Assembly: GCF_009914755.1 (NCBI RefSeq)
Contig: NC_060931.1
Origin: the human T2T-CHM13v2.0 reference genome, Homo sapiens
Direction: 5' to 3' (one strand)
DNA length: 64,000 nucleotides
Part shown: positions 26,766 to 42,080 of the stretch, one piece after another
Position numbering within the stretch: the stretch's first letter is position 1
Layout of the letters: every line of letters begins with the position of its first letter
Position numbers and translations under genes: made by a program
Notes under the pieces: model-generated
Databases searched by the model: none
Told to the model about the DNA's origin: nothing
Seen by the model: the letters and a program-made list of their open reading frames with translations, nothing else

Positions 26766-26978
26766 CTGGTAGGCGGCAGTGGCATCTGCACCTGGGTCGC
26801 CCCCTAGTCCCGAGAGCTTCTCCTTCAGCCTGTGCTGAGAGCTATGGCGGAGGCAGTAGATGAGGCCAGAGGCCAGGAGGACGCCCAGGATGCAGGCGAG
26901 GGAGACCAGGGTGAGCGCGATGAACTTGGTGGAGTCTTCTTGCTCCGCCTGAGGAGGCAGGAACTTGAGTTTGCTTTT
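26766..26978 (-). CDS. PTPRN2: PTPRN2 transmembrane/juxtamembrane coding exon (213 nt, phase 0/0; probably exon 13)
   Basis: Translates [71 protein letters not shown], with a TM helix. Acceptor ctctctccttgttctgcAG at 26979-26980; donor CAG|GTAAGA; joins in frame to exon 315-509 (AYQ|ELC). Confidence 0.97.
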
Positions 26979-28239: not shown

Positions 28240-30300
28240 GCAGCGGATTAGCTGGTGCCGGGACTGAGTTAATGGAAACGCGGGTTAAATGAGAAAAGAC
28301 GCCCGGATTTTCCTGCCTGGATGCGCGGCTCGGAGGAGGACCGCGAGGTTCTCCAGCGGCGGGAGGCGGTGGAGCCGCCGCGGAGAGGGAGGGAGGCTTT
28401 GGAGAGGGAGGGAAGGAAAGGGGGAGGGAGAGGGAAAGGGGGGAGAGGGAGAGGAGGCGCGGGGTGGGGGAGGGGAGTGAGCAGGGAGCCGGGAGAGGGA
28501 GGAGGGGCGGGAACCAGGGGAGCGGCCCGAACCCCGTTTGGTCCGGACCCCGCAGCCACCGCTGGGTCTCGCCGCCGGGTCGCCCTTCGCGTGGAGATCC
28601 GGTCCGCGCCCCCTCCCCGGTCTCCTCCCCTCCCCTCCCCTCCGCCCCCCTCCCTCCGGCCCACACAGCCTCTTCCAGAAAGAAGTCACTCTAGAGCCGC
28701 GCGACCCAGCCCCAGAGTCCGCCGGGGTCCGCCCACCGGGTCTCCTGCGCGCCCCTCCCCGCCCCTCCCCGGGCACAGCCCGTTCACGAAACCTAAGGCG
28801 CCGGCCACGCGCCACCTCCCCCGGGCCGGGGTCTCCTCGGTCCCCGCGCGGGCGCTGGTTCTCCCGGGTGGGCGGCAGCCCCGCCCTGTGCCCTCCTGGG
28901 CCGGCGCGAGGGACCCTAGAGCGCGCGGGGGGCCCCAGGCGGGGAGGAGCGGCCGCGACCCCGGATGCGAGAGGCGTGTGGGTCCAAGCGGCGCCGGGAC
29001 AGGGGCCGGGTCCTCTGCCCACCCCAGGGTCCATGTTCGCCTGCGGGGCCGCGTCCCCCGGAGCCATACCTGGGCGGGAGGGCTTTTCCCGGGGGCCCGG
29101 CCTGCGCCCCTCGCCGCCCCTCGCCCCTCGCCTCTCGCCTCCCGCGGGTCCCGCCTGGCCTTGGCCGACGGAACAAGAACAACAAAGGAAGCGGCGCGAC
29201 CGGCGGAGGGGGCGCCCGCCGCCCTCCCACCCCTCATCCCGGCCGGGCCGATGGCCCCCGCGCGCCTCCATCCGCCCCAGCGCGGAGGCGACCCCGGCCC
29301 CGCTGCCCCGGCGTCGGGAGGACACCGCGCGCTCACGTGGATGACTGCGCCCGGGAACAGGGACTTCCCGAACCTTCCTGCCCCGCGCCGTGAGGCCCAC
29401 ACGCGCGCGGTGACCACCCTGGTTCTGAGGGGGCGGCGGGGCCACGGCGTGTGGCGGACCCGGCAGTGGCACCCAGGCTGTGCGCGCGGGTGTGTGGGGT
29501 TCCGAGGCGCAGGGCGACCGCCGGCTCCGGCTCCCCGAGGAAGGGGCACAGGCGCTGCCCGCGGTCACTCGGGCCAGGTGAGGGCAGGGGACGCGCGGGG
29601 GCCGGAGGAGGAGGCCTGGTCTGCGGGCGGCAGGAGGGACCCGGGGCCAGCCGAGGCTGTTCCCAGGGAGGCAGACACCTGCTGTCGCCGGGACCCTCGA
29701 CACGCTCCGCACGCGCGGGAGCGGAACCGGGCCTGCTTTGGAGGCCTCCCTTGGCGCGCTTGGATTTACTCAAAGGTCAAAGAAAAATGTCAAGGAGAGC
29801 GATTGCCTGGAGAGCTCCTGGCTCTCCTCCCGGGTCCCCGCTGGGTCCCAGGAGTCCCCGGAGGGGAAGCAAGGAGCCCCAGTGCCCTGGAGTCCTGTCT
29901 CCACCAACCTCGCCCGGCTCCCTGCTGCCTAGGCCCGCGCTGTCCCAGCAGAGGAGGGGTGGGAGCCGCCCCAGGCCCACCTCCCCGCGCCGGTCCACAA
30001 GGAGGCCCCTCCTGCAACCTGGGAGAGGCCGGGGGAGGCCCGGAGGGCGACCGCGCGGGGCCGCGGGACCTGGACAGCCGGGGAGTCGTGACCGCGGGCA
30101 GCGCCGGGGCTGAGGGCGAGGAGGGTCTTACTGCAGGGAAGGGCGGGACGCTGGACAGAGGGACCGACTGGGGTCCACCGGCCTGACACAGAAGTCGCTG
30201 GATCCCAGGGCCCGGCTGGGAAACCCGCTTCCTACCCGCCCGCGGGCGCCGCAGAAGAAACCGAAGAAAGAGGTCTTCCCTCCACGCCCAGGACGGTTTC
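28240..30300. promoter_or_regulatory. Intragenic CpG island, part 1
   Basis: Very GC-rich with dense CpG, many GC boxes and no repeats. Confidence 0.9.
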
Positions 30301-33300
30301 AAGTGTCCCACCCAGCGCTGAGCAGGAGGGTGATGCGGAGGGAAAAACTGTTGGCTGCAAGTCAGGTCTTAGGAATCCCGGAAGAAACGAAGATTTAAAG
30401 AATTTTTTTCTAAGTGATTGAGTTCCAATAACTTTACAATGACTTGACTCCCTTTTTGTGGAGTTAAAAAAAATCTTCAAACTCCTGCTAGCCATGGCCT
30501 TTAAGAGAAAGAAATGAGTTTAAAAGTGAGTTTGAGGCACAGTCTTGACCCAGGTGTGGCTTTGGTGGTCCTCAGCGCCATCTCCCCCATGGGCACCGAC
30601 CCCCCAAGGCTGCACCACGGCGGGTGGACCCCAAAGAGAGCCCAGACTAATTAGAGGCATCTTATCAGTCTTGACTTGAAATTGAAAGAAAATTATGTTT
30701 AAATATTTATGACTTTGACATTTACAGTCAGGCGTTTTTGAAAAGCGGAACACCCCCTTCTGTACAGCGGCAGCTCAATGACTGAAAGTTTGGAACAGAG
30801 AAGAAGTGAGGAGGAGGAGGAGGGAGAAGGAGGCCTGGTAACACAGCGGCAGGGGTGCGTCCCGGGTGGGGGAGATGCACAGATAGGCACACTTCAGTGC
30901 TGAGTTCTCAGAGGCAGGAATAGTATAATTTAAAAAAATAATCAGGAATGATTAAGTTAATTTTATCCCAGGTTAGATCTATCTTGAGAATAAGATGAAG
31001 TACAATATCGCATATTTCTTCCTCTCAACCGTCTGCACCTGCAACTCCTCAAATTTAGAATAGACAGTATTGCAAAAGTTGTGATTCAAAATAAGTGTAT
31101 GACCACAGAGACAATTTGTGGAGCTGTCTTAGAACTTAGCATCTGCAGACACTGTCCTGACCAATTTAAATTATTTTGACCGTGCCCCTGAGTGGAGGTG
31201 CATGAGGCTTCCACCCCATGCCCTTGTGAGCCATTTACGGGAAAATGCCTTCAGAACTTTTTTAGCTGTCCATGTGGTAAGCTTAAAAGAAAAGAAAAAA
31301 GGACATGTTATGCCCAAACTCAATTGTGAGAGCTGATACAGCCACACAAATACAAAACTTTATGGTAAATATGTGTTGACGGGTAGCCAGATTTAGTCCT
31401 TTTCCAAGGTTGTGTGATATAACCAGTTAACAGGAGCAGTTCATTCTCTGAGTCACGATGTGCAGTATTAAAATATGCTTGCATCATAAAGACGTAGGGA
31501 TACAGGTGCTCGGTGCCAGTTAATGTTAAACTTCTAACATTGTTGATGCTTTCATTTGTATCATTTCTAAGGAATCAGATTTCAGTCCCAGCCTCATCCT
31601 ATCTTTGTGTGCATTTAAATTACTAAATTATAAATACCTTTTTCTCTTAAAACTTAGAAGTCAGTTTTAGAGACCATTAATGAGTTGCTGTAACAAGTTT
31701 ATCTTTGGTTTGCTGGATGAATCCTCTTAGAATTATTAGGAAATTTCATTCTAAATTTACTAAAAGGCATTACTAAAATATAATACTCACTTTAGGGCTG
31801 ATGAACATTTTAAGTTTTCAGGCCATAGCAAGTGATCCAACTTGAAAACACGGGGGAAGGGGTGTCTTAAAATATTTTAAAAGTATTTTTTAAAGCTGTT
31901 AACGGAACTACTTTTAATTTGGAATTTGCCACAGAATTCTAATAAATGAGAGAAGTCAGGCGGAAATAATCATGTATTAATTCTCTGCATTACAAAATCT
32001 TTTCAGAAGCTATTATCAGAGCAAGAGGCACTGCGGTCTGAATTCAGGGTGGGAGAAGCCCTTTGTGCAACTGAAAGCTATTGTTCCTCCGTGCAGATGA
32101 AATTGTACTTGCAAATCTGCCATTCAAGTGGCCAAAAAACCCAAAAAAGCAAAAGAAAAGAATCTTCAAGGAAAAATTATTCTTAAATGTAAACTTTAAT
32201 GAAAATAAGTTGGGATATACTGTTTTAAAATGGGCTATTTGTTGAGTTTTTCCAGGCATACACTTAAAAGTGAATATACAAGAAAGGCAATAAATTGTCT
32301 ATTTGCCATCTTTAAGCACTCCTAAAACATCAGTTTTAAAGAAATACTGTGTTTTAAGACATCAGGGAAGATTTATGATACTGATGTCCAAAGGGGGAAG
32401 CACCCTTGTGCAAACTAATTCTAACCAGCAGATTGCCTCCGGTGGGAGAGAGGGACCCAGAGGCTGAGCAGGGGAAGGATGCCCCTGAGAAAGCCGCCCC
32501 CAGCCTCTTTCAGACTCTCCGCTGGCGTTTTCATGACACCCAAACTCAGACTCAGCGGATCACACTTAAGGCACCGGCTCCTGACCCCTATTTTTGGCCC
32601 GCCCGCCTGGTCCCCAGGCCTGCCTGGACGCACGCGCGCCTTCCACACCAGGTGCTTCTCGGGACGGGGCCTGGCCTCCCCACCCCGCAAGAACCAGACC
32701 CTCTTCAGGACTGGGGGGGTTACCGCTTCGCCTCCTCTACCCGGACTCAGAAGCCCCAACCCAAGACCCGCCTAGCGTCGCTTGTCAGAACCCCTCTGTG
32801 GCACGACTTTGAGCAGAGGGCGAGGGAAAGGAGGGTCAGCGTTCGGCCCCGTCCCCTGCCTGGGCTTTCTCCCCCGCTTCCCCGTCCCTCCCCCCTCGCC
32901 GGTTCACCGCATCCCCACAGGAGTCATAAAGATCAGGCCCCAGCGCCGGACACAAAGGCCAAGGGTTCCCGGGAGCCGCGGGTATTCAGAGCCAGGAGAG
33001 GGGTCCCGGCGCGGAGGGTGCTGCGGCCCAGCCTCCTGGCCACAGAGCGCGCCGGCCGCGAGGGAGGACCAAGGTCCCCAACCACGCCCGCGTCCACCCG
33101 TGAATCCCGGCGCTCGCAGCCCCCGGGCGGCGCAGCCGCCACCGCCGCCGTCTTCTCTGGAGCGCAGAGGGGTGTGCTTGGGAGGGGGCGGGAGGGCACT
33201 TTCCTCTGTGTCGGTGAAAGGAAGAGCTTCCAGCTCCCTCCTCCGCACAAACCTTCACTTCCTCTCTTGTTCGATCGCGTCCTAAAATCTGGGATCGGCG

Positions 33301-33769
33301 ACGCAAGGACAGCCTGGTTTGGCGAAGACCCCTCGGACACCCTGCGCTCCGGACTCCAGGCGGGTGGCTCCACGGTGCCGGCCGGGACGCGCAGCTCGGG
33401 GGGCGGGACCACGTCCGGGACCCCGGGGCCGCTGTCCGAGGACGGAGGTCGGTGACTTGAACCGCGTCGTCCTCAGGGCTGTGGCGGGGCCCCTCTCCCA
33501 GCCGTCCAGCCCGCAGCGCCCAGCTCAGCGCACTGAGGACCAAAAAGGGCGGGAGACTCTCTCCGGCCCTAAAAGGCAATTGTGCTGAGATTTTAACTCT
33601 AACTTGGGGGTTCGCCCGATTCCCTGGAGCAACGCTTCTCTAAAACCACGGAGCAGGCCAGTGTTCGGAACTGCACAGGTAGTTACGAAGGAAGGAAATG
33701 AAGTCCCTCGTTCCAACAGCTTCGGGTCCAGTCACAAGTTTCTCTCTGGCGAGCACGCGGCCGCCTCAC

Positions 33770-33975
33770 CTGGGGTGGGGGAGGCGCTGAGAAAGCGCAG
33801 TTCTCTTTGGGGGAGGAGAGATGGCCTCTCAGAGGCGTCCCCACCTGCCTCTGGAACGCCTCTCCCTGCAGGCCCCCTCGGTTCCCTGCAATTCGCCGCC
33901 CGCTGGGATACTCCCATGGCTCGGAGGCGCGCTCCCGGACCCTGGTGAGGAGGGTGAAGAGCGCCCCAAAATGGG
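33770..33975 (-). other. Candidate alternative exon B (206 nt, phase 1/0)
   Basis: Acceptor CGCATTTTCCTCTCAG at 33976-33977; donor CCCCAG|GTGAGG at 33769; frame is open and bridges exon A to the TM exon. Confidence 0.3.
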
Positions 33976-34592
33976 CTGAGAGGAAAATGCGCCCACACTG
34001 GCGCCTCTCCATCCTGGCTGCTCGCCCCTTCCCTCCTCCTTTCCCACACGCCTCCCATCTCCGTGCCTGCACCCCCCCACCCCCAGCACCCTGCAATGGT
34101 CGGAACTGCAGGGAGTGGGGAGCAACGCGAAAGGCCGAGAGAAGAGCGCTGGGGAGAAGTCCCGGAGGTCCTAGACTCCTTGGGGCGGTCTCTGCGGGGC
34201 GCTGGGCCAGGACAGCTGCCAACCCTCCAAATCTGTGCGCTCAGAAGGAGCTGCCCTTTGCCCGCTCCTCCTCACAGGCCCACCCTAGACCCACTTGGGG
34301 ATGATCCCAGGCGCAGCTCTCCCCTGCCGGCCCAAGCCTTTGACAGGAGTCCTGCGGCGAGGCAGAGACCCCCTGAACTGAGCTCTCCGACGCCCTAGTT
34401 GCCCGTTAGAGCCCCCATGCGCGCCCTCCAGCCTTCGAAAGCTCTCTTCCTCGCCCCACCACCTACGCGCCTGGTGATGCTCTCGTGGGCCCTTCCTGCT
34501 CCCTCCGCCCCCATCCCAGCCTCTCTCGCCTCTTCCAGGGCCCACCCAACCGCACTACGAGCGCCCGCGCCCCGCCCGGCACCCCTGGTTAC

Positions 34593-35008
34593 CTGCAGCT
34601 GGGCCGGCGCCCAGCGCCCGCGCGGGAGGAGGTGGGGGCGTGCGCCGGGCCGAGCGGCCTCGGGGCGCAGCAGCTGCGGGTAGCGGCAGCGCCATCATCA
34701 CAGCCAGCTGCTTCCCTGCGCTGGAGCCACAGACTAGCGGGGTCATCCGCTTCTGACCACAAACTTCTAGGGCGGCCGGAGGAGACAAAGGTGCCGCGCG
34801 TCGCTGCTCCAGCAGCAGCGGCTGCGCGGCGGCACGGGCTCGGAGCCCGCAGGCGCCGGAGCTCTGCGCGGCCGCTCGGCCCAGCTCCGCGTGCTCCGCC
34901 CCGGCCCGGCCCCCGGGCTAGGCACGCTGGGCCGGGGCGCGGCGCGGGCGGGCTCAGGGCGGGCTCCGGACGGTCCCGGTAGGGCCGCCGGCCGCGCGCG
35001 TAGCACCA
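34593..35008 (-). other. Candidate alternative first exon A from an internal promoter
   Basis: Begins about 30 nt downstream of a TATA box; donor CTGCAG|GTAACC at 34592; in-frame ATGs at 34746, 34698 and 34695. Confidence 0.5.
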
Positions 35009-35220
35009 ACCAGCGCGGCCGCCGCGCCCCGCCTTATATCCGGCCCGGCGCGCACCCGGCCGGCGGCGGCGCGGCTCGCGGCCCAGCCACCGGTTGCTAT
35101 AGCGATGTCCCCCCCCCCCCCACATGTTGCTGACAGCAATTGGCTAAGGGGCCGCGGCTCTCCAAACACCCTCTCCCGCCCGAGACTATGAATGGACATC
35201 AGCTTTGTCAGTCATTGGTA
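35000..35220 (-). promoter_or_regulatory. Internal core promoter: TATA (35032-35039), X-box-like GTTGCTATAGCGAT (35093-35106), C13 tract, X-box-like GTTGCTGACAGCAAT (35126-35140), CCAAT (35139-35143 and about 35213-35217)
   Basis: Motifs read directly, in canonical order and spacing, oriented with PTPRN2, at the densest CpG part of the island. Confidence 0.6.
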
Positions 35221-37243
35221 CAACGCCGAAGCCAGGGCCTTCGCCTTTTCTTTCTTTTCAGTGTTTCTCCCTTTCATCGTTCATACTGGGCAAGTTCAGG
35301 GTAGCACCGAGGGGAGAGAGACCTCGGCCAGAAAAGTCAAGGCGCGCGGCTCTGCTGTGACCTTTGTCCTGGGAGGGGTGGGTGGGGTGCGTCGCCACTC
35401 TTGGCAAGAGAAAATTGCACGGCATATCGTTCTTCCCAGTTACCTTTTCCAGTGTTGCCGTTCGGGCCTTTTTGCTCCCTTTCCAAATGGAAGCAGGCCA
35501 ATGATTCAGGGCGAGTAGACGAGAGCCCCTCTGCTCACTTTACCAGGGTCCTCCCGAGTGTTTAGGTCCCGATGCGCGTAGAAAGTGTCTTGCGAGACGC
35601 GGAACTGGTGAGACTTTGCCACCATTTGGTCCAGGCCAATGTCGGCCGCCAGCCCAAAACGCCGAAGGGAGACGGCGGTGAAAACCCAGGCGTGCGAGCT
35701 GCGTCCTTGCCCTTCCCCCTACCCAGGTCAATGGTCTGGCCTAGACCACCGCTCTGCGGGCGAAAGGAGTGGAGCAGAATCACAGGCCACGCTCCCAGTC
35801 GTTCGAGCCTGCCCACATAACCCCCGGCCCCTGGCGCAGTCAGGCCCGCAGCGGGCGAGAAGAGCTAGGGTCTCGGGGCGACTAGGACCACTGAGCACCT
35901 CCCCCCCGCGCCTCCCGCCCATGCTCTCTCTCCCCAGGCCCTGGACCCCGGGCCACAGCCACAGGTTGGGGCACCCCGGTGCGCGGCGCCCCCGCGGAGC
36001 TGGCGAGAGCCGGAGAGCTGAAACCCAACATCTGTGTGTACAATGCGCTCTCCGAGGCCCACAGCTGCAGGAACAAGGAGAAGAAAGGAAGAGGGGGGCG
36101 CAGATCTTGTCACACGCAGATGACAGTCTGCGGAGGGCTCTTTAGTTTCTCCTTTTCTGGAAACCCCAGCGGCCCCCTCCTAGGCCCCCCTCTCCCACCG
36201 CCTGGCCATTGTTCCCTGCGCCCGGGACAGCTGGAGACGGCGGCCCGCGCCACTCGACGCCCCTCCCGCCGCACACCCGGCTGCCCGCGGCGCCCGCTCC
36301 CGGCCCCTCCGGGGCCAACTCCTCCACACCCCCCACCTCCCCAGGCCAGGCCCAGGCGGCGCTTCCACAGTCTCCCCTCCCCTCCCTTGCACTCTGGCGC
36401 TGCCCCTAGACCTGCTCGGTGCAGAGGGCCTTGCCTGGCGCTTTTCTCTCACAAACCTAGTTCTGTAAAACCTGGGGGCGAGCCCCAGGGGGCAGGGCTC
36501 AGAGGCGGGGGTTGTCCACAGATATGAGTACGGTGCCGTCCGCTGCAGGCCCCTGTCTAAAAGTGGCCGAAGGACCCCGTTTCCTCTGACTGCAGGCCCA
36601 GGCTGAGTTCCGCATTTATTTTTGTATTTATAGGGCAAGGCCAGAGCGCTTCATAAAGCTCCAGGGCAAAGAAGTGGCCTCGCATCGGGCCATGGTTCCC
36701 GCAGGCCTGAGCGGGCTGCAGGAGGCCCGGTGCGGCTCGGCGGGGGCGCGAGAGGCGAGAAACTGCGGCGTCACTGGCGTCCTCTGCCCATGAGTGAACC
36801 CCTCCAGTAGGCGGGGACGGGGTACATCACCTTGGCCCTCTCGTCCCCCCTGCCCAGGGCAAGGCCCGCAAAAACCCCCGCACCCTGGCTCGGGGGCGGC
36901 GCGGCGGCGGGCAGGTCAGAGAGAAGCGGTACTCGGGTTCCCCCAGCGCCCGGGATGCCCTCCCAGGGACCTTCTCGGGCAAAGAGTCGAGTGGTAGCGG
37001 TTCCTGTCCCTCCCCGCCACCCTCCTCCGGTGCCTCGGCGTCCCCAGCCAGGCTCCAGGGCGACCCCAGGCCCGGCCCTGGGCAGAGACAGAGGAGGGGA
37101 GGGGAGGTGGCGCTGGGGGGCGGGGGGCCGGAGACGGCGGGAGGAGGACTCGGGAGCCGGGGCGGGAAGAGGGGAAGACAGCGGAGAGAAGGGACGGGGA
37201 GGGGAGGGGGCTCGGAGGAGGGGACCTGCTGCCCTCAGCCTGG

Positions 37244-37270
37244 CTGGTAACCGGCCTCTCCATAGCAACG
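37244..37270. promoter_or_regulatory. RFX X-box (CTCCATAGCAAC, 37258-37269) with an adjacent GGTAAC half-site
   Basis: Minus-strand GTTGCTATGGAG is close to the RFX consensus GTTGCCATGG(C/A)AAC. Confidence 0.55.
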
Positions 37271-39856
37271 GCCAGCGCGCGCGTCTGTGTGTGCGCGCGT
37301 GTCTGATGTGTGTGTGCCCGTGGTGTTCCCGGGACTCCCCGCGGGGGCTGGGAGGGGATCGCAGAACCCTAGGGTGGCGACAGAGCAAACCCCTCCAGGA
37401 CTGGAGGCCCGACCTCCGCGGTGCTGGGAGCGCCCTAGGGTCTGGCTGCGCCGCGCTGGCGACGGGGTAGGCTCGGGGAACGCGCGCAGGCCCCGGGATC
37501 GGCCGCTGGGGCATTGGGGCATCCTGCCCTCGCTGCCCCGACCCTCCCGCTGCGGTCGCAGGGCCTTGGGGCACCGGGGAGTGGGCGGGTCTTCCCAGCG
37601 ACCCGGAGCACAGGGGCGGGCGACGGCGCCCCCACCATGGCCCTGCCCGGCCCGAGCGCCCGGCGCACCTGAGGTCTGGGCCGGGGAGCAGCTGGGGAAC
37701 CGCGCGTCGCCTCGGGGAGCTCCCGGCCAGGCCGGCTCCGGGCAGAGGCCAGAGGGGCCCTGGCGCACCCTCCCCGCCCGCGGCGACCTCGCACCACCTT
37801 CCCCGCCAGCCCGCGGCTCTCCTCGCCCTGGATCGCCGGAGCCTCATCCAGGCTGGGGTCTCCAGCAGGCGGCCGGGAGCTCTCCGAGGTGGCCAGGAGT
37901 GGCCGGTAGCCGTCTCCCTCGGCCAGGCCGTGTCCAGCCCCTCAGTCTCCACGGCGGCGCAGACCGCACGCGGCCACCCTGGGCCTCGGACAGGGCTAGG
38001 GGGACGCAGACCCTGCCGTCTGGGGGTCCTGGGGCGGCCACGGGGCCGGCGACCCCAGAGCAAGGCGGAGCCTAGTACAGGCCAGAGAGCTGGTTTTGCT
38101 TTCTTCACAGACATGACCTGACAGTGAATACACAAATAAATACAATTCTTTTCGTTAGTCCCTTCTTCCGTTGTCTCAGTGTTTCACTTCCAACATCAAA
38201 GCACCGCATTCCTGATTTGATCTTAATTTAATGACCTGTCTTTCTAGTGCTTTGAGGAAAGATGGGTGGGAGGTGGCACCAATTCAGTTCAATTTGGGTC
38301 ACTTTAAAAATCGTGAGAGGGCCTGAAAGGTTCCATGCGGGTTCACCAGCAGAACAGCACACTTCCTCGTCCACGCCTTGGTGCACCTGCGGCAATATAT
38401 TCTGGGTGGCAGACGGTTATTTATGTCTGAGAGCCTCCAACTCACTCCCCTTCCTCCCACCACCCCTCCTCTAAGGTGCGGCCTGACCTCAGTGGGGCTG
38501 CAGAACTGGCCTCGCCAAAGCTGAAGGCGGACCCACACTCTAAGCCCTAGAGTCTAGGGGGGTCATGAGAAGAACGCGTTTGTATTTGAGGTGCTGGTTC
38601 TTTTAGTCTATTGCTTCAGAAACTGGTAAGTTACTCGCCAGATTTCCATTCTATTTTTCTTTATTTTAAATTCCCTTTTTATTTCCAGGGCAGGAAAATG
38701 TATCTTCTAATTCTTGAAAATACTTTAGAAAAGTGTCTCGGCAATAATGTGAGACTAGATTCAGCTAATTTGAAGAATGAATAATGATGTGAGGATTTTT
38801 TCTTTTTTCTTTTTTTTTTGGTCATGAGATCTTAGACTTCATTTAATAATAAATTTCAATTTACATGATTTCAATAACATTTTCAGAGAAAACTTTTAAA
38901 CATGACACAAAATATTTTTGAGAGACATGTTGATTGAAATCATTTATATATGACAAATGAGTACATTATTCATATAGAAGTTAGGGTTGTTTGGCTGATG
39001 AATAAAAAATATAATATATGTAAAATTCTCCAAGACCTACAAAATAGCTACACAATATAAATAGTTTAAAAATGATTTGTTGATCCTGCCAATACTTCTT
39101 TTAAAGTGCATTTCACATTTGTTATGTGTAAAACCTAATGTTCTGTGATAAGAATCTCATTTTCAATTTAAGGAACACCAAATTGTTATAGATTACACAT
39201 TTAAGTGATTAGAATAAATATCCCATGCACTAAATTATCAAAGAAAATGTATTTTTAAACAAAATAGAGAAAGACTGTTATGGGAAACATGATTATTATA
39301 AAGCAAAACACATATTTCAGGAATTTAAAATAATATGGTAAGGTAGAAAATGATTTAAAAAACACCTGAGACTCTTGATTTCAGAAGTCTAAATCAATTT
39401 TGTTTTTTAAACTAAGACAGTAATTTATAATTTTACAGTACACAAATAGTATTTAAAATACTTTTGATTTCTAAATCCATTTTTAAAAAGTATTTACTAT
39501 TATAATATAAAAATAAAAATAGATCCTTAAAAATATTGTAGGTATGTGTATAAGGCATTTCTTCATGCATATATTTAAAGAAAACAACATTTTAAAGTAA
39601 CAATGAGTGCATTTTGAAAACAAGATGTTTTGAGAGGTCAGCCTCCTAGTAAAGCATAGTAGTTGGCATTGAGATAATTTAAGAACAAAGACACTTCCAC
39701 AGACAAATATGGATGACTCTGAGTTGAAATGTATTAACCACCAGTAGTTATTTTTTCAAGGACAATATTTGGAAGAGCATCAGACACTAGTGAGAAGTCC
39801 TTATTCATCATAAAAGAAGGTAAGTCCATTGCAACAATAGGGCAGTGAAACAACTG

Positions 39857-42080
39857 CATCTTAGTAGAGCCCTCACCGTCTACCCGTGCATACTGGATCT
39901 TAGTAGAGCCCTCACCATCTACCCATGCATACTGGGTCTTGGCAGAGCCCTCACCATCTACCCATGCATACTGGATCTTAGTAGAGCCCTCACCATCTAC
40001 CCATGCATACTGGGTCTTGGCAGAGCCCTCACCATCTACCCATGCATACTGGGTCTTGGCAGAGCCCTCACCATCTACCCATGCATACTGGGTCTTGGAA
40101 GAGCCCTCACCATCTACCCATGCATACTGGGTCTTGGCAGAGCCCTCACCATCTACCCATGCATACTGGGTCTTGGCAGAGCCCTCACCATCTACCCATG
40201 CATACTGGGTCTTGGGAGAGCCCTCACCATCTACCCATGCACACTGGGTCTTGGCAGAGCCCTCACCATCTACCCATGCATACTGGATCTTAGTAGAGCC
40301 CTCACCATCTACCCATGCATACTGGATCTTAGTAGAGCCCTCACCATCTACCCATGCATACTGGGTCTTAGTAGAGCCCTCACCATCTACTCATGCATAC
40401 TGGATCTTAGTAGAGCCCTCACCATCTACCCATGCATACTGGGTCTTAGTAGAGCCCTCACCATCTACCCATGCATACTGGATCTTAGTAGAGCCCTCAC
40501 CATCTACCCATGCATACTGGATCTTGGCAGAGCCCTCACCATCTACCCATGCATACTGGGTCTTGGCAGAGCCCTCACCATCTACCCATGCATACTGGAT
40601 CTTAGTAGAGCCCTCACCATCTACCCATGCATACTGGATCTTAGTAGAGCCCTCACCATCTACCCATGCATACTGGGTCTTAGTAGAGCCCTCACCATCT
40701 ACCTATGCATACTGGATCTTGGCAGAGCCCTCACCGTCTACCCATGCATACTGGGTCTTAGCAGAGCCCTCACCGTCTACCCATGCATACTGGATCTTGG
40801 CAGAGCCCTCACCATCTACCCATGCATACTGGATCTTGGCAGAGCCCTCACCATCTACACATGCATACTGGGTCTTGGCAGAGCCCTCACCGTCTACACA
40901 TGCATACTGGGTCTTGGCAGAGCCCTCACCGTCTACCCATGCATACTGGGTCTTGGCAGAGCCCTCACCGTCTACTCATGCATACTGGGTCTTGGCAGAG
41001 CCCTCACCGTCTACCCATGCATACTGGGTCTTGGCAGAGCCCTCACCATCTACCCATGCATACTGGTTCTTGGCAGAGCCCTCACCATCTACCCATGCAT
41101 ACTGGGTCTTGGCAGAGCCCTCACCATCTACCCATGCATACTGGGTCTTGGCAGAGCCCTCACCATCTACCCATGCATACTGGGTCTTGGCAGAGCCCTC
41201 ACCATCTACCCATGCATACTGGGTCTTGGCAGAGCCCTCACCATCTACCCATGCATACTGGGTCTTGGCAGAGCCCTCACCATCTACCCATGCATACTGT
41301 GTCTTGGCAGATTCCTCACCATCTACCCATGCATACTGGGTCTTGGCAGAGCCCTCACCATCTACCCATGCATACTGGATCTTAGTAGAGCCCTCACCAT
41401 CTACCCATGCATACTGGGTCTTAGTAGAGCCCTCACCATCTACCCATGCATACTGGATCTTAGTAGAGCCCTCACCATCTACCCATGCATACTGGGTCTT
41501 AGTAGAGCCCTCACCATCTACTCATGCATACTGGATCTTAGTAGAGCCCTCACCATCTACCCATGCATACTGGATCTTGGCAGAGCCCTCACCATCTACC
41601 CATGCATACTGGGTCTTGGCAGAGCCCTCACCATCTACCCATGCATACTGGGTCTTAGTAGAGCCCTCACCGTCTACCCATGCATACTGGATCTCGGCAG
41701 AGCCCTCACCGTCTACCCATGCATACTGGGTCTTAGCAGAGCCCTCACCGTCTACCCATGCATACTGGATCTTGGCAGAGCCCTCACCGTCTACCCATGC
41801 ATACTGGATCTTGGCAGAGCCCTCACCATCTACCCATGCATACTGGGTCTTCGCAGAGCCCTCACTGTCTACCCATGCATACTGGATCTTGGCAGAGCCC
41901 TCACCATCTACTCATGCATACTGGGTCTTGGCAGAGCCCTCACCATCTACTCATGCATACTGGGTCTTGGCAGAGCCCTCACCATCTACCCATGCATACT
42001 GGATCTTAGCAGAGCCCTCACCATCTACCCATGCATACTGGGTCTTGGCAGAGCCCTCACCATCTACCCATGCATACTGG
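39857..42080. repeat. 39-bp minisatellite, about 57 copies
   Basis: Unit tcttggcagagccctcaccatctacccatgcatactggg with g/a and gc/gt variants. Confidence 0.98.

What the first reader, a model, noticed from the sequence alone, without database searches (positions are those of the whole stretch)
34990..35220. Complete internal promoter in the PTPRN2 sense orientation: CCAAT, twin RFX boxes, TATA, first-exon donor
Seen, reading the minus strand: CCAAT (about 35215 and 35141), two X-box-like palindromes GTTGCT-GAC-AGCAAT and GTTGCT-AT-AGCGAT flanking a G13 run, GATATAAGG about 30 nt before the predicted TSS (about 35005), and a strong donor CAG|GTAACC about 410 nt later. Established: RFX factors (RFX3/RFX6 in islets, RFX in neurons and ciliated cells) bind X-boxes. 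Inference: this is an alternative PTPRN2 promoter that bypasses the long 5' part of the gene, allowing rapid, separately regulated transcription of the 3' half.
Basis: partly seen in the sequence, partly recalled or inferred. Interest (0 to 1): 0.8.

Follow-up and report, generated by a model that had tools for sequence, protein, structure and literature searches.

The report
Internal PTPRN2 promoter upstream of miR-153
This stretch is very probably the human counterpart of an internal promoter already described inside mouse Ptprn2, which lets neurons transcribe the gene's 3' part and its embedded microRNA miR-153 on their own, so it looks real but is mostly not new.

Summary
They lie at the GC peak of a 5.5-kb intronic CpG island, 32500-38000.

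The element matches the mouse "Ptprn2 cryptic/alternative promoter" of Mathew et al. 2016 (eLife, PMC5293492). Three of the six mouse ChIP primers I tested have their best window-wide match here, colinear and in the sense orientation. The element lies 116 kb upstream of MIR153-2; the mouse figure is about 100 kb. In mouse neurons that site gains H3K4me3 on depolarisation and is proposed to drive pri-miR-153.

So a sense-oriented internal promoter is supported, and it is already in print.

- **RFX binding.** Neither palindrome meets the strict X-box consensus.
- **The exact start site.** No initiator motif was found.
- **Use of the donor at 34593.** It matches the consensus at 7 of 9 positions, so it is moderate rather than strong.

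All three AUGs of the putative first exon are out of frame with the transmembrane exon. The likely product is therefore a pri-miRNA or uORF-laden transcript, not a simple truncated protein.

Interest is low to moderate.

The parts
32500..38000 (.). Intronic CpG island that holds the element
   Evidence: All eleven 500-nt bins have GC 0.61-0.78 and CpG o/e 0.54-0.91. Flanking bins drop to GC 0.23-0.4. The peak, GC about 0.85, is at 34800-35099.
35214..35218 (-). Distal CCAAT pentamer
   Evidence: It starts 213 nt upstream of the predicted start at 35005.
35170..35193 (+). Anchor 1 to the mouse cryptic promoter (primer R1 reverse)
   Evidence: 21 of 24 bases match, the best match in the whole window. 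0 of 200 shuffled primers reach this.
35126..35143 (-). Proximal CCAAT (35139-35143) overlapping X-box-like palindrome 1 (35126-35140)
   Evidence: One perfect half-site GTTGCT; the other half has 1 mismatch at spacer 3. It is the best X-box-like site in the window.
35109..35121 (-). G13 run (C13 on the plus strand)
35093..35106 (+). X-box-like palindrome 2, GTTGCTATAGCGAT
   Evidence: Perfect half-site, spacer 2, and 2 mismatches in the second half.
35032..35040 (-). TATA box GATATAAGG (TATAAG at 35033-35038)
   Evidence: The only TATAWR in 34300-35400 on either strand, and one of two in the whole CpG island, both on the minus strand. The flanks are 88-92% GC.
34593..35008 (-). Putative first exon. 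The start is inferred from the TATA spacing and has not been mapped.
   Evidence: Inference. No YYANWYY initiator on the minus strand in 34960-35020.
34695..34748 (-). Three upstream AUGs (A at 34746, 34698, 34695), all in the frame that leaves 1 base at the donor
   Evidence: The AUG at 34695 has A at -3 and G at +4.
34701..34725 (-). Anchor 2 to the mouse cryptic promoter (primers R2 reverse and R3 forward)
   Evidence: 18 of 22 bases match for each primer, both window-wide best matches. 3 of 200 and 0 of 200 shuffled primers reach this.
34587..34595 (-). Candidate 5' splice site CAG|GTAACC
   Evidence: 7 of 9 matches to CAG|GTRAGT, with 7 consecutive positions matching the consensus. It is the first site at 7/9 or better after the TATA.
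33900..34600 (-). G-rich sense strand downstream of the donor (GC skew)
   Evidence: Plus-strand GC skew runs from -0.21 to -0.42 in several 200-nt bins of this stretch; two bins, 34000-34199 (-0.13) and 34100-34299 (+0.04), do not share it.
26766..26978 (-). Next annotated PTPRN2 exon (transmembrane segment), the expected acceptor
   Evidence: Frame 1 reads ...[25 protein letters not shown]..., so the exon starts in phase 0. Its acceptor is a pyrimidine tract followed by CAG.

Best explanation
This is the human counterpart of the internal ('cryptic' or 'alternative') CpG-island promoter of mouse Ptprn2.

Inferred mechanism:
- RNA polymerase II starts on the minus strand, in the PTPRN2 sense direction, near the TATA box at 35033-35038.
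- It transcribes the last ~151 kb of the gene.
- That stretch includes the intron holding MIR153-2, 116 kb downstream.

Shown in rodents: the promoter is induced by neuronal activity largely independently of the main PTPRN2 promoter 918 kb upstream. Its proposed product there is the miR-153 primary transcript.

Inferred for human: a first exon of about 410 nt probably ends at donor 34593 and joins the transmembrane exon at 26978. All three of its AUGs are out of frame with PTPRN2, so the RNA is best read as a pri-miRNA or uORF-laden transcript rather than an mRNA for a tidy truncated protein.

The CCAAT pentamers, the X-box-like palindromes and the G run are candidate upstream elements. Which factors bind them is not known.
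For: Sequence:
- All motifs are present, at the GC peak of a 5.5-kb CpG island.
- It holds the only TATAWR in 1.1 kb, on the sense strand.
- The sense strand is G-rich over most of the stretch downstream of the donor, as at transcribed CpG-island promoters (that interpretation is recalled knowledge).
- The stretch is single copy in the genome.

Orthology:
- 3 of the 6 tested mouse 'Ptprn2 cryptic promoter' primers have their window-wide best match at 35170-35193 and 34701-34725. They are colinear and sense-oriented, and 0, 3 and 0 of 200 shuffled primers reach those scores (primers).
- Spacing to miR-153: about 97 kb from the paper's coordinates ('100 kilobases' in its text) against 116 kb in human (and the hub annotation).

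Function in rodents (sections 8 and 44-48 of PMC5293492 read):
- ENCODE H3K4me3 shows a second peak inside Ptprn2.
- KCl raises H3K4me3 about 100-fold there against 3-fold at the main promoter.
- Pol II and H3K36me3 rise over miR-153.
- CREB, CBP/p300, C/EBP-beta and ATF4 ChIP signals increase.

Other support:
- Mice lacking the Ia-2beta promoter keep about 50% of brain miR-153 but almost none in islets (PMC3671108, passages).
- A short unannotated 3' PTPRN2 transcript was reported in human neural stem cells (PMC8499053, passage).
- The main PTPRN2 promoter and the CpG island at window -42 kb both lack a TATA and an X-box-like pair, which fits separate regulation.
Against: - No human start-site, histone-mark or junction data could be consulted here.
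- 3 of the 6 tested primers (R1F, R2F, R3R) show no match above chance, so conservation is patchy. I cannot say whether the TATA or the palindromes are conserved.
- No CRE half-site (TGACG), AP-1, C/EBP-like or ATF4-like motif lies in 34300-35400, although CREB and ATF4 were found by ChIP on the mouse region.
- No initiator consensus at the predicted start.
- RefSeq lists no functional element or separate gene at this place (hub annotation). I could not see the other 13 RefSeq transcripts.
- A different putative human miR-153-2 start, 38.9 kb upstream of the precursor, was predicted by miRStart.
Confidence: 0.7

Rival explanations
1. The promoter exists to make an N-terminally truncated PTPRN2 (IA-2beta) protein. 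The first exon would splice to the transmembrane exon, and translation would give either a membrane-anchored cytoplasmic half or a soluble phosphatase-like domain.
For: - The next exon has a strong acceptor.
- The AUG at 34695 has a good Kozak context.
- The first in-frame Met downstream lies in exon 315-509 (…[12 protein letters not shown]…), so leaky scanning or re-initiation could in principle yield a cytoplasmic fragment.
Against: - All 3 AUGs of the putative exon leave 1 base at the donor, while exon 26978 starts in phase 0.
- The phase-0 frame is open for only 34 codons and has no AUG.
- The fused ORF from AUG 34746 stops after 96 codons inside the transmembrane exon, out of frame. That would predict nonsense-mediated decay (established rule, inferred here).
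- The transmembrane exon has no in-frame Met, so any product would lack the membrane anchor.
Confidence: 0.12
2. In human the stretch is a poised (polycomb/bivalent) or enhancer-like orphan CpG island with no productive sense transcript. On this reading the TATA, CCAAT and palindromes are chance features of a long island.
For: - The island is unusually long at 5.5 kb.
- The motif composite occurs somewhere in 27 of 200 shuffled windows.
- The motif tests were defined after seeing the motifs.
- No RefSeq feature is listed here (hub annotation).
- PTPRN2 intragenic CpGs are among the most often reported differentially methylated sites.
Against: - Within the island the composite arises in only 1 of 2000 shuffles, and a TATAWR in 45 of 5000 shuffles of the GC core.
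- Both TATAWR of the island are on the sense strand.
- The mouse orthologue carries H3K4me3 and gains it on stimulation.
- A 3' short transcript is seen in human neural stem cells.
Confidence: 0.15
3. RFX factors bound to the two X-box-like palindromes are the main activators of this promoter.
For: - Two perfect GTTGCT half-sites lie 33 bp apart in the same orientation, each with a degenerate second half.
- The window has no better X-box-like site.
- PTPRN2 mRNA falls in RFX6- and RFX3-knockout human pancreatic progenitors and is restored by re-expression (passages).
Against: - The strict X-box consensus is not met: 0 matches, and 1 and 2 mismatches for the two sites.
- The knockout effects are part of a general loss of the endocrine programme and say nothing about this promoter.
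- In islets, miR-153 depends on the main Ia-2beta promoter.
- The first palindrome also contains TGACAG and TGCTGAC, which I recall as MEIS/TGIF and MAF half-site cores. That recollection was not tested.
- No paper listed in the searches links RFX to this element (listings and two passages only).
Confidence: 0.3

Closest known systems
Mouse Ptprn2 'alternative/cryptic promoter' for miR-153 (Mathew et al., eLife 2016, PMC5293492)
   Same: - Same gene and same sense orientation.
- Same relative place: about 100 kb upstream of miR-153 in mouse against 116 kb in human, and hundreds of kb below the main promoter.
- Direct sequence matches to 3 of the 6 tested mouse tiling primers flank the TATA and palindrome core.
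   Different: - The human element has no published chromatin or start-site data that I could find.
- The CRE, C/EBP and ATF4 motifs reported for the mouse R3/R5 segments are not seen in human 34300-35400.
- The paper does not describe a TATA box, CCAAT pentamers or X-box-like palindromes in the sections I read.
Intragenic ('orphan') CpG-island promoters used as tissue-specific alternative promoters (recalled general class; Maunakea et al. 2010 seen only as a reference)
   Same: A CpG island inside a gene body, far from the annotated start, with promoter-type chromatin in brain and variable methylation.
   Different: It carries a TATA box, which is uncommon in CpG-island promoters (recalled). 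It also sits upstream of an intronic miRNA, which gives it a defined non-coding output.
X-box/Y-box (RFX plus NF-Y) promoter modules such as MHC class II SXY and ciliary-gene X-box promoters (recalled)
   Same: GTTGCT-type half-sites lie next to a CCAAT pentamer close to a start region.
   Different: - Neither palindrome meets the X-box consensus.
- The CCAAT overlaps the palindrome instead of lying at the spacing recalled for those modules.
- No RFX or NF-Y occupancy data were available.
Independent intronic promoters of host-gene-embedded miRNAs (PROmiRNA and pri-miRNA CAGE studies, seen only as listings)
   Same: An intronic miRNA can be transcribed from its own upstream promoter, uncoupled from the host gene promoter.
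   Different: The promoter is very far from the miRNA (116 kb). It would also re-use the host's downstream exons rather than produce a compact miRNA gene.

Membership tests
Orthologue of the mouse Ptprn2 internal (cryptic) promoter | Sequence correspondence with the mouse region chr12:118,392,000-118,395,000 (coordinates as printed in the paper) | tested here: met
   3 of the 6 tested primers (R1R 21/24, R2R 18/22, R3F 18/22) have their best window-wide match here, colinear and sense-oriented. 0, 3 and 0 of 200 shuffled primers reach those scores. The other 3 show no match above chance. Only 6 of the 20 listed primers were tested.
Orthologue of the mouse Ptprn2 internal (cryptic) promoter | Position about 100 kb upstream of miR-153, inside the gene body, in the sense direction | tested here: met
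   35005 to the MIR153-2 precursor at window -80919 is 116 kb (hub annotation). The mouse coordinates give about 97 kb and the paper's text says 100 kb.
Orthologue of the mouse Ptprn2 internal (cryptic) promoter | Activity-induced H3K4me3 and CREB, CBP, C/EBP-beta and ATF4 occupancy | not testable with these tools
   Shown only for mouse neurons. At motif level, human 34300-35400 has no TGACG, C/EBP-like or ATF4-like site.
CpG-island promoter | CpG island criteria: length, GC content and CpG observed/expected | tested here: met
   32500-38000 has GC 0.61-0.78 and o/e 0.54-0.91. The core 34500-34999 has GC 0.78 and o/e 0.91.
CpG-island promoter | Mapped transcription start and H3K4me3 in human cells | not testable with these tools
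   No CAGE or ChIP data are reachable. The only human hint is a short 3' transcript in neural stem cells, given without coordinates.
TATA-containing focused core promoter | TATA box on the transcribed-sense strand | tested here: met
   TATAAG at 35033-35038 on the minus strand. It is the only TATAWR in 34300-35400, and one appears in 45 of 5000 shuffles of 34900-35200.
TATA-containing focused core promoter | Initiator (YYANWYY) about 30 nt downstream of the TATA | tested here: not met
   0 matches on the minus strand in 34960-35020.
RFX X-box site | Consensus GTNRCC N0-3 RGYAAC (recalled; tested with Y allowed at position 6) | tested here: not met
   0 matches in 34400-35500 on either strand. 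The two sites have 1 and 2 mismatches in the second half.
RFX X-box site | RFX occupancy | not testable with these tools
   No ChIP data. The RFX3 and RFX6 knockout effects on PTPRN2 mRNA are indirect evidence at gene level only.
NF-Y CCAAT box | CCAAT pentamer at the usual -60 to -100 distance from the start (distance recalled) | tested here: inconclusive
   The pentamers start 138 and 213 nt upstream of the assumed start at 35005. The start itself has not been mapped.
Alternative first exon encoding an in-frame N-terminus | An AUG in the first exon in frame with the downstream coding exons | tested here: not met
   All 3 AUGs end in phase 1 at donor 34593, while exon 26978 starts in phase 0. 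The fused ORF stops after 96 codons.

The most novel reading that the evidence does not exclude
The human internal promoter is a TATA-plus-X-box module bound by RFX factors. That would tie RFX3, RFX6 or the neuronal RFXs directly to miR-153-2 output, and to a cytoplasmic-only IA-2beta fragment initiated at the Met of exon 315-509. It would form a second, RFX-controlled secretory-vesicle regulatory unit nested inside PTPRN2.
Probability: 0.1. Interest if true: 0.55.

Novelty: already known. Interest (0 to 1): 0.3.

Why it matters
miR-153 restrains vesicle exocytosis and fear memory in rodents, and it targets alpha-synuclein and SNARE-pathway genes. Knowing exactly where its host-independent promoter lies in human helps in three ways.
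- **Methylation studies.** Many PTPRN2 intragenic methylation associations could be read as possible changes in miR-153 control rather than in the phosphatase-like protein.
- **Experiments.** It defines a compact target for CRISPRi.
- **Annotation.** RefSeq lists no functional element here.

The sequence-level anatomy (TATA, CCAAT, paired half-sites, donor, out-of-frame AUGs) is a modest addition to what is in print.

Tried and rejected
- **Rfam, 30000-40000 at E up to 1.** Only a sub-threshold mir-373 match at 33181-33241 (24 bits against a gathering score of 69, E 0.65). Rejected.
- **Repeats.**
  - Tandem repeats: only very short arrays, none explaining the motifs.
  - Local direct and inverted repeats: GC-rich chance-like pairs only.
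  - Own-genome search with 34550-35250: a single match, so it is not a dispersed repeat or a duplication.
- **Motifs.** CRE, AP-1, C/EBP-like, ATF4-like, NRF1 and EGR patterns in 34300-35400: none.
- **Coding.** ORFs in the island are Arg/Pro/Gly-rich, as expected for GC-rich DNA. I did not search them further.
- **Literature that led nowhere:**
  - 'PTPRN2' with 'intragenic CpG island': 4 papers, none about this element.
  - 'PTPRN2' with 'internal promoter': only the eLife paper.
  - 'PTPRN2' with 'RFX' and 'miR-153' with 'RFX': no listed paper ties RFX to this site (listings plus two passages).
  - The XBP1/hypoxia paper concerns PTPRN, not PTPRN2.
  - No location information in the IgA-nephropathy H3K4me3 paper, the pancreatic methylation atlas, the PTP review, the 2006 mouse kinase/phosphatase review, the 2008 pri-miRNA annotation, the SCLC super-enhancer paper or the neural transcriptome paper.
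  - The one supplement of the eLife paper does not mention Ptprn2 or a promoter.
- **Supplements not seen.** The ESM figures of PMC3671108 (miRStart map) and the figure supplements of PMC5293492 could bear on the exact placement.

Full report
**1. The observation.**

Reading the minus strand of 34400-35500 and locating motifs by script confirms every item.
- CCAAT at 35214-35218 and 35139-35143.
- Two palindrome-like sites, GTTGCTGACAGCAAT (35126-35140) and GTTGCTATAGCGAT (35093-35106), written as the plus strand.
- A G13 run at 35109-35121 between them.
- GATATAAGG at 35032-35040.
- CAG|GTAACC with its last exon base at 34593.

The first T of TATAAG is 33 nt before 35005, and the donor lies 412 nt after it.

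**2. Context.**

The motifs sit at the GC maximum (about 0.85 at 34800-35099) of a long CpG island.
- The island spans 32500-38000, with GC 0.61-0.78 and CpG o/e 0.54-0.91 in all eleven 500-nt bins.
- It lies in the PTPRN2 intron upstream of the exon at 26766-26978. That exon encodes the transmembrane segment (…[25 protein letters not shown]…).
- The 701-nt core is single copy in the genome.
- It is not a tandem array and matches no Rfam family.
- Over most of the stretch downstream of the donor the sense strand is G-rich. Plus-strand GC skew is -0.21 to -0.42 in several bins of 33900-34600. From recalled knowledge, this is the usual polarity of a transcribed CpG-island promoter.

**3. Is it more than chance?**

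- The palindrome pattern gives 2 hits against 0.11 expected; 1 of 100 shuffles reached 2. That pattern was written from the hits themselves.
- A composite of at least 1 TATAWR, 2 CCAAT and 2 RFX half-sites in 230 nt on one strand occurs once in the real window, at 34989-35267 minus. It also arises somewhere in 27 of 200 block-shuffled windows.
- Restricted to the CpG island, it arises in 1 of 2000 shuffles. A TATAWR arises in 45 of 5000 shuffles of 34900-35200.
- Only two TATAWR exist in the whole island, both on the sense strand.

The cluster is unusual for its GC-rich setting. All of these tests are post hoc.

**4. Two overstatements.**

*The X-boxes.* The strict X-box consensus (recalled: GTNRCC N0-3 RGYAAC, tested with Y allowed at position 6) has no match in 34400-35500.
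- Each site is one perfect GTTGCT half plus a degenerate half, with 1 and 2 mismatches.
- The site at 35126 is still the best X-box-like site in the window.

*The donor.* It matches 7 of 9 consensus positions and lacks +5G.
- It is the first of 10 sites at 7/9 or better between the TATA and the next exon.
- A better one, CAG|GTGAGG at 8/9, lies at 33770.

No initiator consensus lies at the predicted start.

**5. What it is.**

A full-text search for 'PTPRN2' with 'alternative promoter' led to Mathew et al., eLife 2016 (PMC5293492). I read sections 8 and 44-48 of it. Its findings:
- KCl depolarisation of hippocampal neurons raises H3K4me3 about 100-fold at the internal site and 3-fold at the main promoter.
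- Pol II and H3K36me3 rise over miR-153.
- CREB, CBP/p300, C/EBP-beta and ATF4 ChIP signals rise.
- The authors conclude that miR-153 is induced from an alternative (cryptic) promoter within Ptprn2.

The paper prints 20 tiling primers for that region. I tested the six of sets R1-R3 against the whole window on both strands, ungapped.
- R1-reverse matches 21/24 at 35170-35193.
- R2-reverse matches 18/22 at 34701-34722.
- R3-forward matches 18/22 at 34704-34725.
- Each is the window-wide best match, in the orientation expected for PTPRN2 sense. Shuffled primers reached these scores in 0, 3 and 0 of 200 trials.
- R1-forward, R2-forward and R3-reverse had no match above chance.

The mouse R2 amplicon therefore corresponds to the stretch holding the palindromes, the TATA and the putative first exon.

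Spacing agrees too. MIR153-2 lies 116 kb downstream in human (hub annotation), against about 97 kb from the mouse coordinates.

**6. Further literature.**

- Mice whose Ia-2beta promoter is deleted keep about half of brain miR-153 but almost none in islets. The authors took this as evidence for an independent brain-specific start, and they cite a miRStart prediction 38,909 bp upstream of the human precursor (PMC3671108, passages).
- A single-cell RNA-seq method paper noted 'a short unannotated transcript' in the 3' part of human PTPRN2 in neural stem cells and linked it to the mouse alternative promoter. It gave no coordinates (PMC8499053, passage).
- I found no paper describing the TATA, CCAAT or palindromes, or RFX binding here.

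**7. Coding capacity.**

- The putative first exon has three AUGs, with the A at 34746, 34698 and 34695. All lie in the frame that leaves one base at donor 34593.
- The transmembrane exon begins in phase 0.
- The phase-0 frame of the first exon is open for only 34 codons and has no AUG.
- After a 34593-to-26978 splice, the ORF from 34746 ends after 96 codons inside the transmembrane exon, out of frame.
- The transmembrane exon has no in-frame Met. The first one is in exon 315-509.

A neat truncated receptor is therefore not encoded. The RNA looks like a pri-miRNA or uORF-bearing transcript, and a cytoplasmic fragment made by re-initiation remains only a possibility.

**8. Separate regulation.**

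I fetched two other candidate promoters of the locus and scanned them.
- The main PTPRN2 promoter, at window about 953 kb, is a TATA-less CpG island with no X-box-like pair.
- The CpG island at window about -42 kb, near the miRStart site and between two annotated lncRNAs, is the same.

The motif set at 35 kb is therefore particular to this element. That fits independent control but does not prove it.

On RFX, PTPRN2 mRNA falls in RFX6- and RFX3-knockout human pancreatic progenitors and is rescued by re-expression. This happens within a general loss of endocrine genes, and in islets miR-153 follows the main promoter. I put RFX occupancy of this site at about 0.3.

**9. Verdict.**

A sense-oriented, separately regulated internal promoter is very likely (0.7), because this is the orthologue of a published mouse element.
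- The RFX mechanism, the exact start and the donor are unproven.
- The likely product is pri-miR-153-2 rather than a protein isoform.
- The element is already known in kind and, in mouse, in identity. The human sequence anatomy is a small addition.
- Interest is 0.3.

Noticed in passing
window 36615-36773, minus strand: A second sense-strand TATA box lies in the same CpG island: CTATAAATA, with its first T at 36632. An AATAAA follows at 36620-36615. A CRE half-site TGACG lies at 36773-36769, about 140 nt upstream; no TGACG was found in the 34300-35400 stretch scanned. Plus-strand GC skew changes from negative (36100-36500) to positive (37000-37300). This may be a second or divergent start zone.
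   Followed up: partly
L002 (window about 951700-954700) and L003 (window about -43700 to -40700): The canonical PTPRN2 promoter and the CpG island between LOC105375614 and LOC105375615 are both TATA-less CpG islands without any X-box-like pair. The second lies close to the miRStart-predicted miR-153-2 start of Mandemakers et al. 2013.
   Followed up: partly
window about 36.9 kb and about 30.0 kb (conversion unverified): A human striatum methylation study lists PTPRN2 DMRs at chr7:157484891-157484931 and chr7:157478003-157478040 (PMC8517202 Table 2). Using my recalled hg19 position of MIR153-2, these fall inside this CpG island and in the small CpG-rich patch at 30000-30499. The assembly and the conversion were not checked.
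   Followed up: no
window 35109-35121: The 13-nt mononucleotide run (G13 on the sense strand, C13 on the plus strand) lies between the two half-site pairs. By general knowledge, a run like this tends to vary in length between people, which would change the spacing of the flanking sites. This was not testable here.
   Followed up: no
window 33181-33241, plus strand: A weak, sub-threshold Rfam match to the mir-373 family (24 bits against a gathering score of 69, E 0.65). I regard it as chance.
   Followed up: no
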